Positions 35,405 to 39,282 of a stretch of 64,000 bases of DNA are shown here, piece by piece (the first letter of the stretch is position 1; every line of letters begins with the position of its first letter). Source of the stretch: a virus. The notes under the pieces are model-generated. The model was given only the letters and a program-made list of their open reading frames with translations, ran no database searches and had not been told where the DNA came from. A program made the position numbers and the translations under genes. The stretch spans positions 16,435 to 80,434 of IMG/VR virus record IMGVR_UViG_3300036852_000353; one strand, 5' to 3'.

Positions 35405-35512
35405 TACGACACCTTTCACCAGGGGCAAAACGCGAGAAACCCGCAGTGCAAGCACCCGAGAGATGAGGAACTTGCACTGCGGGAGCGCCGTGGCATGGGC
35501 CGCGGCGCTTCG

Positions 35513-35586
35513 TACGCACGGAGGGACTTGAACCCCCATCATCCAGGACCTGAACCTGGCGCCTCTGCCAATTGGACTACGTGCGC
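35513..35586 (-). tRNA. tRNA-Leu (CAG) with a short variable loop
   Basis: GCGCACG/CGTGCGT acceptor, A73, CCAGG-TT-CAG-GT-CCTGG, 5-nt variable loop. Confidence 0.85.
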
Positions 35587-35769: not shown

Positions 35770-35833
35770 ATGCCGCGCACCTTCCTTGTCGGTGCGGGCC
35801 GGAAGACCTCCCCAGGTGCGTCCGGCCCGCGGA

Positions 35834-37504
35834 TCAATCGCCCTGGGACACCGCATCCCAGGGCCAGACGCCCGCCACTCCCGCTTCGAGCATCGGGATC
35901 AGCTTGAACGCCTGGTCAGTTAGTCCGCCAAGCGTGAAGCGGGCATCACTGCCGCTCGGCATGGCGGAGGCCGTGTATCCCGCGAAGTTCCACATGTACA
36001 CGGGAACGTTGAGAGGGACGACGGCGTCGATGCGGGTGTGCTCGACGCTGTAGCCGTTCTCGTTGGAGGGCAGGTACCCGGGCTGGGTCTGCTCGTCGGT
36101 GATGATGACGACACGGTCGTGGTTGTTGTAGTGGCGGCGGACAGCGGCGGGGATGTTGGTGCCCCAGTCCTTGCCGAACTGCTCGACCAGGGGCAGCACA
36201 CTGGTGCCCTTCTTGACCGTGATCTCCCGGGACTGGCCGTGAAATTCGACCAGGGTCGGGATCTCGGCACGTACAGCCAGCGCGGACCCGAAAACAGCGG
36301 CCTGGTCGGCGCGGGAGATGTCTTTCATCTTCATGTTCGGGAACTTGTGATCCCAGTCGGGGAACATCGACGGGCTGCGGTCCACGAGGATCAGCGTGCG
36401 CCCGCCGAGGGAGGGCACGTTGGCCAGTGAGTGGTTCAGTGCCTGTTCCAGCGGATAGGCCCAGCGCAGCAACCCGGCGTCCTTCGTCGCGCGGTGGGCG
36501 GCGAGAAAGCGGAAGGGGAACTGCCGCGACCGCGCGATGACGTCGGCGTCGGTCAGCGCGGACACGATCTGCTGGGCGACCTTGTCAGAGACCCCTGCCT
36601 GGTCGAAGTTCCGCAAATTGCGGATCTGCGACATGATGCCCATGGACGGGATCATCGCTTCCCAGGCCGCCTTGTCCAATGGGCCCTGCAGCCATCCGGC
36701 CAACGCCTCCCACGTCATCCCCGCTTTGGCGAGGATCTCCGGACCGTCGGGGCCGGTGACCACCGCACGGCGTTCCTCGACCGGCATCTCCATCAGCCTC
36801 TTGCGTGCCGTGAGTGTCCGGTTCGAGTCGGGCGGTACCGCGGTGTCGGGGTGGTGGCGGCGGTCGAGGGCGTATTGGAAGACGTCGCCCTGCCACGGCT
36901 TGTCGGGGTCCGGCGACGCGTGCACCAGGTTGAGGATGTCGCCGAAGCGGTAGCCCTTGGACGCGGTGTCGTACTTCAGCAGCGCCTTGCCGTTGTAGAG
37001 ACGGCGTACGGCGTCGGCGATGCCGCGCTTGACGGGCTTGGGTACGTTGCGGCCGTACGTGGACGTCCAGTAGGCGAGCAGCTCGCCGGGCTCGTCGGCG
37101 CGCTGCAGCACGGAGTCGATGACCTTGCGCGAGCCGAGCTGGTTGTGCTGGAGGCGTTCGGCGGTGAACTCGGCCGCACCAACGAGGGCGGCAGTGCGCA
37201 TGTTGCCCGGTCCGCGGAGCCACTTGAGCATGTCGGCTGTCCAGACCGGGTCTTCCACGGTGGTCTTGCGGATGAGGCGGGCGAAGCGGCTGTCACGGTC
37301 GATGCCCGACTCGTGGAGATGGTCCTTGCCGTCCAGGAGGGCACCGGACGCCATGAGGAATAGCTCACCCTGTGCGGTACGTGTCCATCCCGGCGCGCCG
37401 AGGGCGGTCGTGGTGTCGGGGGTCTTGGAGACCGTGGCGATGGGACTCGTGGTCGTGGCGACCGGAGGCTTGGTCTTGTGGCTGGTGGTGTTGAAGCGGG
37501 CCAC
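35834..37504 (-). CDS. Ro60/Rsr-like TROVE-domain RNA-binding protein with vWA domain
   Basis: ELFL, LRGPGNMRTAALVGAAE, RADEPGE, KYD, LRNFDQAG, RQFPFRF; vWA LILVDRSPSM and VVIITDEQ. Confidence 0.93.
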   Translation of the reverse strand: MARFNTTSHKTKPPVATTTSPIATVSKTPDTTTALGAPGWTRTAQGELFLMASGALLDGKDHLHESGIDRDSRFARLIRKTTVEDPVWTADMLKWLRGPGNMRTAALVGAAEFTAERLQHNQLGSRKVIDSVLQRADEPGELLAYWTSTYGRNVPKPVKRGIADAVRRLYNGKALLKYDTASKGYRFGDILNLVHASPDPDKPWQGDVFQYALDRRHHPDTAVPPDSNRTLTARKRLMEMPVEERRAVVTGPDGPEILAKAGMTWEALAGWLQGPLDKAAWEAMIPSMGIMSQIRNLRNFDQAGVSDKVAQQIVSALTDADVIARSRQFPFRFLAAHRATKDAGLLRWAYPLEQALNHSLANVPSLGGRTLILVDRSPSMFPDWDHKFPNMKMKDISRADQAAVFGSALAVRAEIPTLVEFHGQSREITVKKGTSVLPLVEQFGKDWGTNIPAAVRRHYNNHDRVVIITDEQTQPGYLPSNENGYSVEHTRIDAVVPLNVPVYMWNFAGYTASAMPSGSDARFTLGGLTDQAFKLIPMLEAGVAGVWPWDAVSQGD

Positions 37505-37551
37505 GCCTGTCCTTCCTTGTCATCGCACCAGCCGGTGGCTGGTGATCAGGT

Positions 37552-37683
37552 GTCCCCGAGATCAGGTCGGTATCGGAACAAGGCGTCTTGGGCCACTCGA
37601 CCACACCAGCAAGCTGGCGACGGGATTCGAACCCGCGTCTCCCTCTGGAAAGGAGAAGTAGCCGATACCTTCGCACCGGGGAC
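37552..37683 (-). ncRNA. Y RNA, YrlA-like (permuted tRNA-like domain), copy A
   Basis: GTCCCC-GGTGCGAAGG 5' strand pairs with CCTGATCTC-GGGGAC 3' strand; inside, a T-arm (GCGGG TTCGAAT CCCGT) precedes a closed acceptor-like stem and a D-arm. Confidence 0.85.
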
Positions 37684-37687
37684 GTCG

Positions 37688-37765
37688 TGGGAGATGAGGG
37701 ATTCGAACCCTCTCGCGACCGGGGCCTGCCGGTGCTTCAGCCGTGTGTCTGGCCAGGACTCTCCC
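37688..37765 (-). ncRNA. Aberrant tRNA-like RNA (Ser-like acceptor, T-arm and long variable arm; irregular D and anticodon arms)
   Basis: GGGAGA/TCTCCC-A acceptor, GAGGG TTCGAAT CCCTC T-arm. Confidence 0.55.
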
Positions 37766-37780
37766 GTGTTCAGTTATATG

Positions 37781-37816
37781 CTGACGGGCTGCGGGAACCA
37801 CCCCGCAGCCCGTCAG
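37781..37816. other. Perfect 15-bp hairpin inside the RNA array
   Basis: ctgacgggctgcggg-aaccac-cccgcagcccgtcag. Confidence 0.8.
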
Positions 37817-37848
37817 TGTGGCCGGACCCACCCGGATACCAGACCAAG

Positions 37849-37923
37849 TGGAACATGGGGGAATCGAACCCCCGACCTCTCGCTTTTCAGACGAGCGCTC
37901 TCTCCGAGCTGAGCTAATGTTCC
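37849..37923 (-). tRNA. tRNA-Phe (GAA)
   Basis: GGAACAT/ATGTTCC acceptor, CT-GAA-AA loop, canonical D and T arms. Confidence 0.93.
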
Positions 37924-38055
37924 GGGTGACCCCTCCCTGTGACGGAAGGGGCAGCGCGACTCGGGACGATCACTCCGGGGTATTCAAGGAAGTGACTCCA
38001 TCACGCTTCTCCAGCGGCCCGTGAAGGCGTACTGCACTGGAGCCGATTTCGGTTG

Positions 38056-38130
38056 TAGGGCCTGGAGGACTTGAACCTCCGACCACTTGCGTATCAGGCA
38101 AGTGCTCTAACCGGGCTGAGCTAAGACCCC
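38056..38130 (-). tRNA. tRNA-Ile (GAT)
   Basis: CTTGC-CT-GAT-AC-GCAAG; canonical cloverleaf. Confidence 0.93.
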
Positions 38131-38133
38131 TAG

Positions 38134-38279
38134 GTGCCTGAGATCAAGATCGACGACACTGTTCGTACCAATGCTCTACCAACTGAGCTACCGGACAGAG
38201 GGGGGAGCTGCCCGGACAGGACTTGAACCTGTGACCTTTGGTTCCCTGTGAAGTAGGTATCGTCTGTCGCACCAGGCAC
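38134..38279 (-). ncRNA. Y RNA, YrlA-like, copy B
   Basis: GTGCCT-GGTGCGACAG / CTTGATCTC-AGGCAC terminal helix; ACAGG TTCAAGT CCTGT T-arm before TAGCTCAGTTGGTAGAGC D-arm. Confidence 0.88.
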
Positions 38280-38288
38280 ATGATGTGA

Positions 38289-38358
38289 CTGTCTGAGATC
38301 AGATCGGCGTCAGGGGGGACTTTTATCAGAAGTACCCTGTTGCCTGCGCACCAGACAG
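38289..38358 (-). ncRNA. Short Y RNA without a tRNA-like domain, copy C
   Basis: CTGTCT-GGTGCGCAGGC / GCCGATCTGATCTC-AGACAG; TACTTCT loop. Confidence 0.75.
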
Positions 38359-38369
38359 AAGTCATGCGC

Positions 38370-38447
38370 GCGCCTGAGGTCAAGAGTGGGCGTTCCGGCG
38401 TGATTTCACCAGAAGAAGTAGCCGGGGGTGCCGTTCGCACCAGGCGC
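38370..38447 (-). ncRNA. Short Y RNA, copy D
   Basis: GCGCCT-GGTGCGAACGG / CTTGACCTC-AGGCGC; CTACTTCTTCT loop. Confidence 0.75.
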
Positions 38448-38478
38448 ACAATGGTTGGCACTCTGTTGAGTTGTCTAG

Positions 38479-38553
38479 GACAGACGACGGGATTTGAACC
38501 CGCACTGCCCCCTCGCATGGCGGGGGCGTGCTGCCAACTACACCACGTCCGTC
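38479..38553 (-). tRNA. Atypical tRNA with His identity (G-1:C73) and ATG at the centre of the anticodon loop
   Basis: 8-bp acceptor GACGGACG/CGTCTGTC; CCCCC-GCCATGCGA-GGGGG anticodon arm; normal D and T arms. Confidence 0.6.
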
Positions 38554-38557
38554 AGGT

Positions 38558-38697
38558 GTACTGCCCGAGATCAAGTCGACGACGCGTTCGTAAGCGCTCT
38601 GCCAGACTGAGCCACCGGCCGACAGCCGGGCGGGATTTGAACCCGCGACCTCTCCATTAACGGTGGAAGAATTCGTCATCTGCGCACCGGGCAGTAT
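38558..38697 (-). ncRNA. Y RNA, YrlA-like, copy E
   Basis: TACTGCCC-GGTGCGCAG / CTTGATCTC-GGGCAGTA; GCGGG TTCAAAT CCCGC T-arm before TGGCTCAGTCTGGCAGAGC D-arm. Confidence 0.88.
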
Positions 38698-38769
38698 TGA
38701 GCGGCCCACCTTGGCGGGTGGCCCACCCTCGGTTGCACTCAGGCCTTGAGATGCCACCGAAATTTTGGT

Positions 38770-38847
38770 TCGAACGGCAGAGGTCCGTGGCGTCGCCGGG
38801 TCGTATCTTGGAAGGAAGGAACCGGCTCCTTCGCACCTGCCGTTCGA
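38770..38847 (-). ncRNA. Short Y RNA, copy F
   Basis: TCGAACGGCA-GGTGCGAAGG / GACCTC-TGCCGTTCGA; TTCCTTCCTTCC loop. Confidence 0.72.
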
Positions 38848-38855
38848 GTGCGTTC

Positions 38856-38883
38856 ACACTATCACCGCCGGTGACTCTGTCAA
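38856..38883 (-). promoter_or_regulatory. Sigma70-type promoter heading the Y RNA/tRNA array
   Basis: TTGACA-N16-TAGTGT with extended TG; predicted start a few nt before copy F. Confidence 0.65.
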
Positions 38884-38943: not shown

Positions 38944-39282
38944 TCAACTAGCTTTGGCCATAGGTTTGTTGACGGTGCGCAGCGGGATCGTGGTTTCCGT
39001 GTCGTCGCTGTCGAACGAATGGCTGGTCGGCATATTTCGCATGACCTCGTTGATGTCGTCCTGAAGGTAGAACGTGTTGTTCTCGCCTTGCAGGCGGCGC
39101 AGTTCTCCGCGCAGGAACTTGACATCTGAAGTCAGTGAAAGGTTGTGCTCCTGTGAGGACTTGTAGGCCTGGTAGATCTCCTGCATCCGGCGGTTGATGC
39201 GTCTCTTGCCTCTGCCGGGGGAGATGACACCGATGGCGAAGGTCAGCAGCCAGAAGACACGGCCGGGTTTGCGTGGTGCCAT
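38944..39282 (-). CDS. Membrane-anchored coiled-coil protein
   Basis: N-terminal hydrophobic stretch; GACAAGGAAGG RBS. Confidence 0.65.
   Translation of the reverse strand: MAPRKPGRVFWLLTFAIGVISPGRGKRRINRRMQEIYQAYKSSQEHNLSLTSDVKFLRGELRRLQGENNTFYLQDDINEVMRNMPTSHSFDSDDTETTIPLRTVNKPMAKAS

What the first reader, a model, noticed from the sequence alone, without database searches (positions are those of the whole stretch)
35834..38883. Phage Ro60 gene fed by an array of six Y RNAs interleaved with tRNAs
Seen: one promoter-like site (38856-38883) heads a 1.3-kb ORF-free region. In it, six hairpin RNAs each carry a 5' GGTGCG strand opposite a 3' GA(T/C)CTC strand, plus a pyrimidine tract (mostly TACTTC). 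Minus-strand order: F, E, tRNA-His-like, D, C, B, tRNA-Ile, tRNA-Phe, Ser-like, A, then the TROVE CDS. Established: Ro60/Rsr binds a bulged helix in Y RNAs (human Y1 begins GGCUGGUCCGAAGG, close to GGUGCGAAGG here), and rsr with adjacent YrlA is known in bacteria and some mycobacteriophages. Inference: six diverged Y RNAs in two classes suggests a modular RNP in which one Ro ring is loaded with different adaptors, to tether different host nucleases or repair enzymes or to decoy tRNA-targeting defences. I know of no description of an array this large, but could not check.
Basis: partly seen in the sequence, partly recalled or inferred. Interest (0 to 1): 0.92.

Follow-up and report, generated by a model that had tools for sequence, protein, structure and literature searches.

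The report
Phage Ro60 gene with six Y RNAs
A soil Streptomyces-type phage carries a Ro60 RNA-binding protein gene preceded by six small partner RNAs mixed with tRNA genes, an enlarged version of a known bacterial system that recurs, unannotated, in many related phages.

Summary
On the minus strand, a conserved promoter is followed by six Y-RNA-like hairpins, two normal tRNAs, two tRNA-like elements with abnormal anticodon loops, and then a complete Ro60 gene.

- **Two classes.** A, B and E are YrlA-type, with a permuted tRNA-like module. C, D and F are short.
- **Specificity.** Two covariance models hit exactly these six sites in the whole 111.5-kb phage genome.
- **Structure.** All five helices of the long type covary: 94.7% of cells are paired, against 65% after shuffling.
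- **Link to Ro60.** In 101 Streptomyces genomes the RNA and Ro60 co-occur 54/2/3/42 (p = 2.5e-22).
- **Protein.** The predicted fold matches every solved Ro60 structure.

The novelty claim holds only in part. Streptomyces chromosomes carry 2-3 such RNAs with the same motifs. Related phages, including the GenBank genomes BRock, GiJojo and Atuin, carry 4-6, and one uncultured contig carries 7. None of these is annotated, and some are mislabelled as tRNAs. I found no paper describing more than two Y RNAs in a phage.

The Y RNA order F-E-D-B-A is kept in related phages, while the tRNAs between them differ. Expression, Ro60 binding and distinct partners are untested. The tRNA-decoy idea is unlikely. 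This scan has reported similar phage Ro60 RNA arrays on other DNA before.

The parts
38856..38883 (-). Promoter-like site: -35 TTGACA (38883-38878), a 16-nt spacer, then an extended -10 TG-n-TAGTGT (38864-38856). The predicted start near 38849 falls 2-3 nt before Y RNA F.
   Evidence: Sequence. Both hexamers are invariant in L009, L010 and L012 while the spacer varies. The generic sigma-70 scan does not call it.
38770..38847 (-). Y RNA F, short type, first in the array
   Evidence: R1 58 bits, E 7e-10; R2 37.6 bits; fold. Orthologues are L009_1, L010_1 and L012_1 at 72-78% identity.
38559..38696 (-). Y RNA E, YrlA type with a permuted tRNA-like module (T arm, loop-closed acceptor-like stem, D arm)
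   Evidence: Rfam YrlA 57.3 bits, E 1.4e-11, below the gathering score of 69. R2 113.6 bits. Orthologues are 79-87% identical.
38478..38552 (-). tRNA-like gene that ARAGORN calls tRNA-His(atg), with a 9-nt anticodon loop. It starts 6 nt after E.
   Evidence: (Rfam tRNA 44.9 bits with a 9-nt loop insert). Its 90%-identical L009 counterpart is called tRNA-Gln(ttg).
38367..38450 (-). Y RNA D, short type. It is the counterpart of the short Y RNA of Streptomyces chromosomes and shares their loop TACTTC...TGGTGAAA.
   Evidence: R1 64.3 bits, E 3e-11; alignment A5. Orthologues are 82-86% identical.
38289..38358 (-). Y RNA C, short type, with no clear orthologue in the related arrays
   Evidence: R1 49.6 bits; R2 42.4 bits. 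The best match is only 0.71 identity, to the short type of Streptomyces chromosomes.
38134..38279 (-). Y RNA B, YrlA type. tRNA-Ile starts 3 nt after it.
   Evidence: Rfam YrlA 39.4 bits, E 2e-6. R2 108.5 bits. Orthologues are L009_4 (87%) and L012_4 (83%).
38055..38130 (-). tRNA-Ile(GAT), canonical
   Evidence: ARAGORN; Rfam tRNA 68.1 bits.
37848..37923 (-). tRNA-Phe(GAA), canonical
   Evidence: ARAGORN; Rfam tRNA 68.7 bits.
37689..37765 (-). It ends about 5 nt before A.
   Evidence: Fold and relaxed ARAGORN call 'tRNA-???'. No Rfam tRNA hit. It is 93% conserved in L009 4546-4626, with a compensated T stem.
37552..37683 (-). Y RNA A, YrlA type, nearest to the Ro60 gene. Its D arm looks like that of class II tRNAs.
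   Evidence: R2 109 bits; R1 35.8 bits. Orthologues are L012_6 (89%) and L010_5 (82%).
37505..37551 (-). Leader with a conserved small hairpin and the ribosome-binding site AAGGAAGGA, 6 nt before the GTG start
   Evidence: Sequence; fold. It is 89-91% conserved in L009 and L012.
35834..37504 (-). Ro60/Rsr gene (556 aa): TROVE ring plus vWA domain with the MIDAS motif D-x-S-x-S (residues 375-379)
   Evidence: Pfam TROVE 4.9e-15. PHROG 850 'RNA-binding protein' 5.6e-44. PDB phiLo Ro60 2.8e-23. AF2 model pLDDT 83.8, matching phiLo, Xenopus, human and Deinococcus Ro60 at TM 0.60-0.74. GC3 0.88.
35794..35830 (-). G+C-rich hairpin just after the Ro60 stop codon, a possible terminator or 3' stabiliser with no U tract
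   Evidence: Fold. It is partly conserved in L009 and L012.
35512..35586 (-). tRNA-Leu(CAG) downstream on the same strand. Four of the phage's seven tRNA calls lie at this locus.

Best explanation
This is a phage copy of the actinobacterial Ro60 (Rsr)/Y RNA system, with the RNA part enlarged.

**Proposed mechanism**
- One promoter drives a precursor that holds six Y RNAs, two decoding tRNAs, two non-decoding tRNA-like elements and the Ro60 mRNA.
- Host RNase P and RNase Z cut at the tRNAs and tRNA-like elements. These abut the Y RNAs within 3-6 nt, so the cuts would release Y RNAs that end at their closing stems.
- Each Y RNA binds the phage Ro60 ring through the shared basal module. That module is the closing stem plus 5' GGUGCG(A/C)AG facing 3' UGAYCUC, close to the metazoan GGUCCGA/UUGAC helix.
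- The upper part presents an invariant U-N-CUUC tract plus either a tRNA-shaped module (A, B, E) or a short loop (C, D, F). By analogy with Deinococcus, Salmonella and Thermus phage phiLo, this part tethers or gates Ro60 with respect to host PNPase and tRNA-recognising enzymes.
- The expected result is a change in RNA decay or repair during infection.

**Shown here**
- The RNA family, its folds and the Ro60 identity of the protein.
- Strict genomic linkage of the RNA to Ro60.
- Expansion of the array relative to Streptomyces chromosomes, and conserved order of the paralogues.

**Inferred**
- Co-transcription and tRNA-guided processing.
- Binding to Ro60 and the identity of any partners.
For: **The six sites are specific**
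- Six full-length hits, and no others, in the 111.5-kb genome.

**The structures covary**
- Long type: 31 pairs in 5 helices, 26 with compensatory changes. 94.7% of cells are paired against 65.4% after shuffling and 36-46% after sliding. The covariation score is 0.709 against 0.19, reached by 0 of 500 shuffles.
- Short type: the closing stem covaries at 7 of 9 and at 6 of 6 pairs.

**The RNA goes with Ro60**
- Across 28 phage and Streptomyces loci, every full-length hit lies beside the Ro60 gene on the same strand.
- In 101 Streptomyces genomes, 54 have both, 2 the RNA only, 3 Ro60 only and 42 neither. Fisher p = 2.5e-22.

**Kinship with known Y RNAs**
- Rfam YrlA matches E (E 1.4e-11) and B (E 2e-6).
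- The probe sequences published for M. smegmatis YrlA and YrlB contain the same ACUUC tract. Those RNAs co-precipitate with Rsr and are cut from one precursor (PMC4201824).

**The protein is Ro60**
-. The MIDAS residues D375, S377 and S379 are invariant.

**Transcription and arrangement**
- The promoter hexamers are invariant in four phage contigs.
- The Y RNA order is conserved: F, E, D, B and A each have 72-89% identical counterparts, in the same order, in L009, L010 or L012.

**Precedent for the mechanism**
- Y RNAs tether Ro60 to PNPase (10.1101/312249).
- Phage phiLo Ro60 with Yrl1/2 binds host PNPase (PMC12135203).
Against: - **No expression data.** The only sequencing runs that hold this DNA are two soil metagenome DNA runs.
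- **No binding test** is possible with these tools.
- **Rfam threshold.** No copy reaches the YrlA gathering score, and A gets no Rfam hit at all.
- **Ro-binding helix.** Its pairing register cannot be settled. In some lineages (BRock, L014) the 3' strand is U-rich and cannot form the metazoan-type helix.
- **Missing partners.** The phage encodes no RtcB, no RNA ligase of the PF09414 family and no obvious partner enzyme, so any effector must come from the host.
- **Cross-binding.** Streptomyces Rsr recognises RNAs with the same motifs. The phage RNAs could therefore act on the host protein instead, or as well.
- **Promoter.** The -10 element matches TATAAT at only 3 of 6 positions.
Confidence: 0.75

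Rival explanations
1. The six copies are redundant. The array would be a dosage amplification that raises the total amount of Y RNA per Ro60, or that saturates host Rsr. It would not be a set of adaptors with different partners.
For: All copies share the same basal module and the same invariant U-N-CUUC tract. Copy number varies from 1 to 7 among related phages. Copy C has no stable orthologue.
Against: Five of the six copies have positional orthologues at 72-89% identity in phages whose Ro60 is only 57-76% identical. The paralogues within the window are only about 68-71% alike. The modules differ consistently: A has a class-II-like D arm, B and E a class-I-like one, and D a conserved loop shared with the Streptomyces short type.
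Confidence: 0.3
2. The tRNA-like parts (the A, B and E modules and the two non-decoding tRNA-like genes) mainly work without Ro60. They would act as decoys or competitors for host enzymes or defence nucleases that recognise tRNA shape. Ro60 would only stabilise them.
For: YrlA modules are true tRNA mimics and are substrates of TruB, DusA, RNase P and the CCA-adding enzyme (PMC4201824; 10.1101/312249). Two elements in the array keep acceptor and T arms but have 9-nt and 6-nt 'anticodon' loops, and one is 93% conserved in L009.
Against: The YrlA-type modules have no anticodon loop, so they cannot be substrates of anticodon nucleases. The three short copies have no tRNA part yet are equally conserved. 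The RNA family is tied to Ro60 in 54 of 56 Streptomyces genomes that have it.
Confidence: 0.1
3. The elements are not stable RNAs. They would be structured spacers, processing signals or attenuators of a tRNA operon that happens to precede the Ro60 gene.
For: They lie between tRNAs and abut them within 0-12 nt, here and in relatives.
Against: Streptomyces chromosomal loci hold the same RNAs beside Ro60 with no tRNA genes at all. Conserved loop sequences, not only stems, are near-invariant across distant phages. M. smegmatis homologues accumulate and bind Rsr.
Confidence: 0.04

Closest known systems
Mycobacterium smegmatis rsr locus: YrlA and YrlB upstream of rsr (Chen et al. 2014, PMC4201824)
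   Same: It is an actinobacterial system with the Y RNAs upstream of Ro60 on the same strand, cut from one precursor. One RNA has a permuted tRNA-like module with a 7-bp acceptor-like stem, and there is a shorter second RNA. The ACUUC tract is present in the published probe sequences.
   Different: That locus has two RNAs and no interleaved tRNA genes. Here there are six RNAs (three long, three short), two tRNAs and two tRNA-like elements, on a phage.
Streptomyces chromosomal rsr loci (unpublished as far as I could find; seen here in L020-L028 and in 56-57 of 101 genomes)
   Same: Ro60 is 48-61% identical (up to 64% in the wider genome survey). The motifs GGTGCG(A/C)AG, TACTTC and TGATCTC are identical, and the long and short types are the same. 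In the Ro60 tree, phage and chromosomal genes interleave.
   Different: Chromosomes hold 2-3 Y RNAs per locus and no tRNAs. The phage clade of the window (with L009 and L012) holds six, with tRNAs between them.
Thermus phage phiLo Ro60 with Yrl1 and Yrl2 (PMC12135203, 2025)
   Same: The phage encodes Ro60 with Y-like RNAs just upstream. It is the best structural match to the window protein. A complex with host PNPase was shown in vitro.
   Different: phiLo has two RNAs and no tRNA interleaving. The protein is only about 24% identical, and the RNAs were identified by a CGAA motif.
Deinococcus radiodurans Rsr-Yrn1-PNPase (RYPER), and the Salmonella rsr-yrlBA-rtcBA operon
   Same: The modular logic is the same: the stem binds Ro60 and the distal module binds an effector, either the PNPase KH/S1 domains or a tRNA-like module.
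   Different: No RtcB or RNA ligase is found in this phage. Any effector is unknown here. Copy number in those systems is at most 2 confirmed.
Cultured actinophages BRock, GiJojo, pSt2308, Alone3, Atuin, Kela, Satis, VanLee and Neville ('Ro-like RNA binding protein' genes)
   Same: The same RNA family lies beside Ro60, usually inside tRNA arrays, in 3-6 copies.
   Different: Their basal motifs differ (for example GATGCG...TTTTCTAG in the BRock group), and Ro60 is 36-46% identical. In GenBank the RNAs are unannotated or are called tRNAs or small ORFs.

Membership tests
Ro60/Rsr (TROVE-vWA ring protein) | TROVE domain detectable by profile | tested here: met
   Pfam PF05731, 56.1 bits against a cut-off of 23, E 4.9e-15. 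PHROG 850 over residues 25-549, E 5.6e-44.
Ro60/Rsr (TROVE-vWA ring protein) | Full-length fold: HEAT-repeat ring closed by a vWA domain | tested here: met
   The AF2 model has pLDDT 83.8 and pTM 0.82. The top 13 Foldseek PDB hits are all Ro60 (phiLo 9KOP/9L5Y, Xenopus 1YVP, human 9NEN, Deinococcus 2NVO), with TM 0.60-0.74 over more than 530 columns.
Ro60/Rsr (TROVE-vWA ring protein) | MIDAS motif D-x-S-x-S in the vWA domain | tested here: met
   The sequence reads VDRSPSM. D375, S377 and S379 are invariant in 17 relatives.
Ro60/Rsr (TROVE-vWA ring protein) | Binds Y RNA | not testable with these tools
   Only genomic linkage is available.
YrlA-type Y RNA as defined by Chen et al. 2014 (copies A, B, E) | Encoded within 4 kb of Ro60 on the same strand | tested here: met
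   A, B and E lie 48-1192 nt upstream of the CDS on the minus strand.
YrlA-type Y RNA as defined by Chen et al. 2014 (copies A, B, E) | Long 5'/3' stem plus a permuted tRNA-like module (T arm, loop-closed acceptor-like stem, D arm) supported by covariation | tested here: met
   Five helices, with 26 of 31 pairs carrying compensatory changes and 94.7% of cells paired against 65% after shuffling.
YrlA-type Y RNA as defined by Chen et al. 2014 (copies A, B, E) | GNCGAA(N)G motif near the 5' end | tested here: inconclusive
   Among the YrlA-type copies, A has GCGAAGG, B has GCGACAG and E has GCGCAG (the short copy F also has GCGAAGG). The first G of the published motif is U here. E also has GACGAA further in, which is where the Rfam model aligns it.
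Rfam family RF02553 (YrlA) as curated | Score at or above the gathering score of 69 bits | tested here: not met
   E scores 57.3 bits, B scores 39.4 bits and A has no hit. These are significant E-values below the curated cut-off. This reflects the Rfam model, which lacks the basal stem. I therefore do not file the RNAs under the curated Rfam family, only under the structural definition above.
[quoted passage not shown] | Ro-type closing stem and motif, pyrimidine-rich loop, no tRNA-like module | tested here: met
   Folds. R1 gives 49.6-64.3 bits. The closing stem covaries. Loops contain U-N-CUUC followed by more pyrimidines.
Canonical decoding tRNA (elements 38478-38552 and 37689-37765) | 7-nt anticodon loop with U33 | tested here: not met
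   The loops are 9 nt and 6 nt. They are best described as tRNA-like. tRNA-Ile and tRNA-Phe do meet this feature.

The most novel reading that the evidence does not exclude
The conserved set of five or six paralogous Y RNAs would be a phage-encoded adaptor kit. One Ro60 ring would be loaded in turn with RNAs that display different tRNA-shaped or loop modules. Each would dock Ro60 to a different host enzyme (PNPase, RNase P/Z, CCA-adding or tRNA-modifying or tRNA-repair enzymes). The interleaved tRNAs and non-decoding tRNA-like elements would set the processing points. In this way the phage would re-programme host RNA decay and repair with a single small operon.
Probability: 0.2. Interest if true: 0.75.

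Novelty: new variant of a known kind. Interest (0 to 1): 0.5.

Why it matters
What bacterial Y RNAs do, and why many of them imitate tRNA, is still unsettled. Work so far rests on loci with one or two RNAs.

This phage clade keeps five to seven distinct Y RNAs in a fixed order beside one Ro60 gene. Cultivable relatives (BRock, GiJojo and Alone3 on Streptomyces, Atuin on Arthrobacter) carry the same unannotated arrays. That gives a tractable system: single RNAs can be deleted or pulled down to ask whether different Y RNAs recruit different partners.

There is also a practical point. Current phage annotations miss these RNAs or label parts of them as tRNAs or small proteins. The two covariance models built here would correct that.

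Tried and rejected
- **Seventh descriptor hit.** The plus-strand site at 38967-39055 is not hit by R1 or R2, so I treat it as chance.
- **Mechanical ORFs inside the array.** They exist but show no GC3 bias, so they are not genes.
- **Rfam at gathering thresholds.** It finds only tRNAs.
- **Generic promoter and terminator scan.** It finds nothing useful.
- **Expression.** The search for sequencing runs found only two soil DNA runs and no RNA, so I did not use read laying.
- **RtcB and RNA ligase (PF01139, PF09414).** Not found in the phage genome.
- **Pairing register of the Ro-binding helix.** I compared a metazoan-like register with the RNAfold register. Lineages with U-rich 3' strands fit neither, so this is left open.
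- **Spacers.** The Ile-Phe spacer (132 nt, -58 kcal/mol) and the 16-bp hairpin after tRNA-Phe are not conserved in relatives. I do not count them as part of the system.
- **Papers not held.** The 2020 Annual Review and the 2018 Microbiology Spectrum review on bacterial Y RNAs are not in the library. The supplementary tables of Chen 2014 are not held either. A published mention of larger arrays therefore cannot be excluded.
- **Complex prediction.** Not used, because it does not take RNA.

Full report
**What the window is**

The window is part of a complete 111,555-bp IMG/VR phage genome with direct terminal repeats and 64.6% G+C. The finding lies in the replication/recombination gene block. 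Helicase, Sak4-like annealase and SSB genes sit upstream on the same strand.

**Checking the observation**

Reading the minus strand and searching motifs confirm six segments. Each has 5' GGTGCG and 3' GA(T/C)CTC flanked by a perfectly complementary stem of 6-10 bp, and the stem sequence differs in each copy. TACTTC is exact in A-D. E and F have one substitution each, so the invariant is U-N-CUUC.

A motif-plus-stem descriptor finds these six and one other site in both strands of the whole genome. The extra site is not hit by any model.

ARAGORN and Infernal confirm tRNA-Ile and tRNA-Phe. They also report a 'tRNA-His(atg)', which has a 9-nt anticodon loop.

Mechanical ORFs cross the region. 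They lack the strong GC3 bias of real genes here: 0.57-0.66 against 0.82-0.88.

The promoter-like site is TTGACA, 16 nt, then TG-n-TAGTGT. The generic scan rejects it. Both hexamers and the bases after them are invariant in three related phage contigs while the spacer varies. The predicted start falls 2-3 nt before the first hairpin.

**What the RNAs are**

Rfam's YrlA model matches E (57.3 bits, E 1.4e-11) and B (39.4 bits), below its gathering score of 69.

I collected relatives from three sources:
- Cultured actinophages found by tblastn (regions).
- IMG/VR contigs.
- Streptomyces chromosomes.

In all of them the gaps beside the Ro60 gene hold the same kind of element.

An alignment of 32 long-type copies gives the YrlA architecture: closing stem, upper stem, T arm, a 7-bp loop-closed acceptor-like stem and a D arm. 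Of 31 pairs, 26 carry compensatory changes. The controls are clear. 94.7% of cells are paired, against 65.4% after shuffling and 36-46% after sliding. The covariation score is 0.709 against 0.19, reached by 0 of 500 shuffles. Short-type alignments give a covarying closing stem, at 7 of 9 and at 6 of 6 pairs.

Two covariance models were built: R1 from short copies and R2 from long copies. Each recovers exactly the six window sites and nothing else in the window or the phage genome. A, B and E score 108-114 bits with R2. D, F and C score 50-64 bits with R1.

**Link to Ro60**

Every full-length hit in 28 loci lies next to the Ro60 gene on its strand.

In 101 sampled Streptomyces genomes the counts are:

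| RNA (R2, E <= 1e-10) | Ro60 (E <= 1e-20) | Genomes |
|---|---|---|
| present | present | 54 |
| present | absent | 2 |
| absent | present | 3 |
| absent | absent | 42 |

This gives Fisher p = 2.5e-22. Where both are present, the RNA typically lies tens of bases upstream of the gene.

The probe sequences published for M. smegmatis YrlA and YrlB contain the same ACUUC tract. Those RNAs co-precipitate with Rsr and come from one precursor (PMC4201824).

**The protein**

The 556-aa product has:
- A TROVE hit.
- A full-length PHROG 'RNA-binding protein' hit.
- A sequence hit to phage phiLo Ro60.
- An invariant MIDAS D-x-S-x-S motif.
- A confident predicted structure whose 13 best PDB matches are all Ro60 proteins, from phage to human.

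**How unusual six copies are**

| Source | Y RNAs per locus |
|---|---|
| Streptomyces chromosomes (same motifs, no tRNAs) | 2-3 |
| Window, L009, L012, L014, L019, L076, L086, Atuin | 6 |
| L010, L016, L099, GiJojo, pSt2308, Alone3 | 5 |
| L101 | 7 |
| BRock | 4 |
| Kela, Satis | 3 |
| Neville | 3-4 |
| VanLee | 2-3 |

Atuin's six are split into two copies upstream of Ro60 and four downstream.

A rough scan of the 80 best IMG/VR loci peaks at 2-3 copies, with about one in eight at 5 or more. That scanner both misses copies and over-calls.

The window is therefore at the high end of a continuum, not unique. In GenBank none of these RNAs is annotated as such. Some are called tRNAs and some are called small ORFs.

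**Evolution of the array**

Five of the six copies have positional orthologues in the same order in contigs whose Ro60 is 57-76% identical:
- F with copy 1.
- E with copy 2.
- D with copy 3.
- B with copy 4.
- A with the last copy.

These orthologues are 72-89% identical, whereas paralogues within the window are about 68-71% alike. The tRNAs between the Y RNAs differ from contig to contig.

Copy A corresponds to the gene-proximal long RNA of Streptomyces chromosomes, and D to their short RNA. In the Ro60 tree, phage and chromosomal genes interleave, and the window forms a supported clade with L009 and L012.

The array therefore looks like an old, maintained expansion of a cassette exchanged with the host.

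**Mechanism**

Established knowledge covers three points:
- Y RNAs bind Ro60 through the 5'/3' stem and use the distal module to tether or gate (10.1101/312249).
- YrlA modules are true tRNA mimics.
- A phage Ro60 with its two Yrl RNAs binds host PNPase in vitro (PMC12135203).

From this I infer the following:
- One transcript starts at 38849 +/- 2 and runs through the array into the Ro60 gene.
- It is cut by RNase P and RNase Z at the tRNAs and tRNA-like elements. E is followed by a tRNA-like gene after 6 nt. B is followed by tRNA-Ile after 3 nt. A is preceded by the cloverleaf by about 5 nt. In BRock and L014 a tRNA abuts the first Y RNA directly.
- Six Ro60 particles form that differ in their distal modules.

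The phage itself has no RtcB and no RNA ligase of the PF09414 family, so partners would be host proteins.

The decoy idea for anticodon nucleases is unlikely for the YrlA-type copies, because they have no anticodon loop.

**Literature and earlier notes of this scan**

Full-text searches found:
- YrlA in 254 bacteria and 22 phages, with at least two Y RNAs in each characterised species.
- Two Yrl RNAs in phage phiLo.
- Nothing that describes larger arrays or tRNA interleaving.

Two reviews and the supplementary tables were not available.

Earlier notes of this scan report many phage Ro60-like genes with arrays of 2-9 partner RNAs on other DNA. The pattern is therefore recurrent within this scan, though apparently unpublished.

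**Verdict**

The finding is real and well supported as an expanded, tRNA-interleaved Ro60/Y RNA operon. It is a new variant of a known kind and of moderate interest. The bold reading, different partners for each paralogue, remains untested.

Noticed in passing
L003 3769-3843; L006 3774-3847; L029 3204-3275; L030 2963-3373: GenBank features in cultured phages overlap Y RNAs. GiJojo 'tRNA-Arg(cct)', Alone3 'tRNA-Ser(gct)' and VanLee 'tRNA-Arg(tct)' lie inside YrlA-type hits. Neville gp88-90, small hypothetical proteins, overlap three or four Y RNA hits. These are probably mis-annotations.
   Followed up: partly
window 38478-38552 and 37689-37765: Two tRNA-like genes have 9-nt and 6-nt 'anticodon' loops. 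The second is 93% conserved in L009 with a compensated T stem. The first is 90% identical to an L009 gene called tRNA-Gln(ttg), which is itself imperfect. They may be non-decoding tRNA mimics kept for processing or for another role.
   Followed up: partly
L004 6079-6242; L006 5967-6199: Sub-threshold manA RNA (RF01745) matches, at 49.7 and 47.8 bits against a gathering score of 55.2, lie between the tRNA-Lys genes downstream of Ro60 in BRock and Alone3.
   Followed up: no
window 37781-37816 and 37924-38054: A perfect 16-bp hairpin follows tRNA-Phe, and a 132-nt strongly folded spacer lies between tRNA-Ile and tRNA-Phe. Neither is conserved in related arrays. They could be an internal attenuator, a nuclease site or filler.
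   Followed up: partly
G001 C1:1117745-1119788 and C10:169269-171196: One Streptomyces genome has two separate rsr loci, each with its own set of two or three Y RNAs. Several other genomes also have two Ro60 genes. One copy may be prophage-borne.
   Followed up: no
L007 3193-3945 (phage Kela): In Kela an annotated RNA ligase gene lies directly between the three Y RNAs and the Ro-like gene. This recalls the bacterial link between Ro60 and RtcB. The window phage has no such gene.
   Followed up: no
window 38944-38960: A second TTGACA box about 70 nt upstream of the array promoter is conserved in two of the three related contigs. It could be a second promoter or an operator.
   Followed up: no
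whole phage genome (G000): The genome has only seven tRNA calls, and four of them lie at the Ro60 locus.
   Followed up: yes
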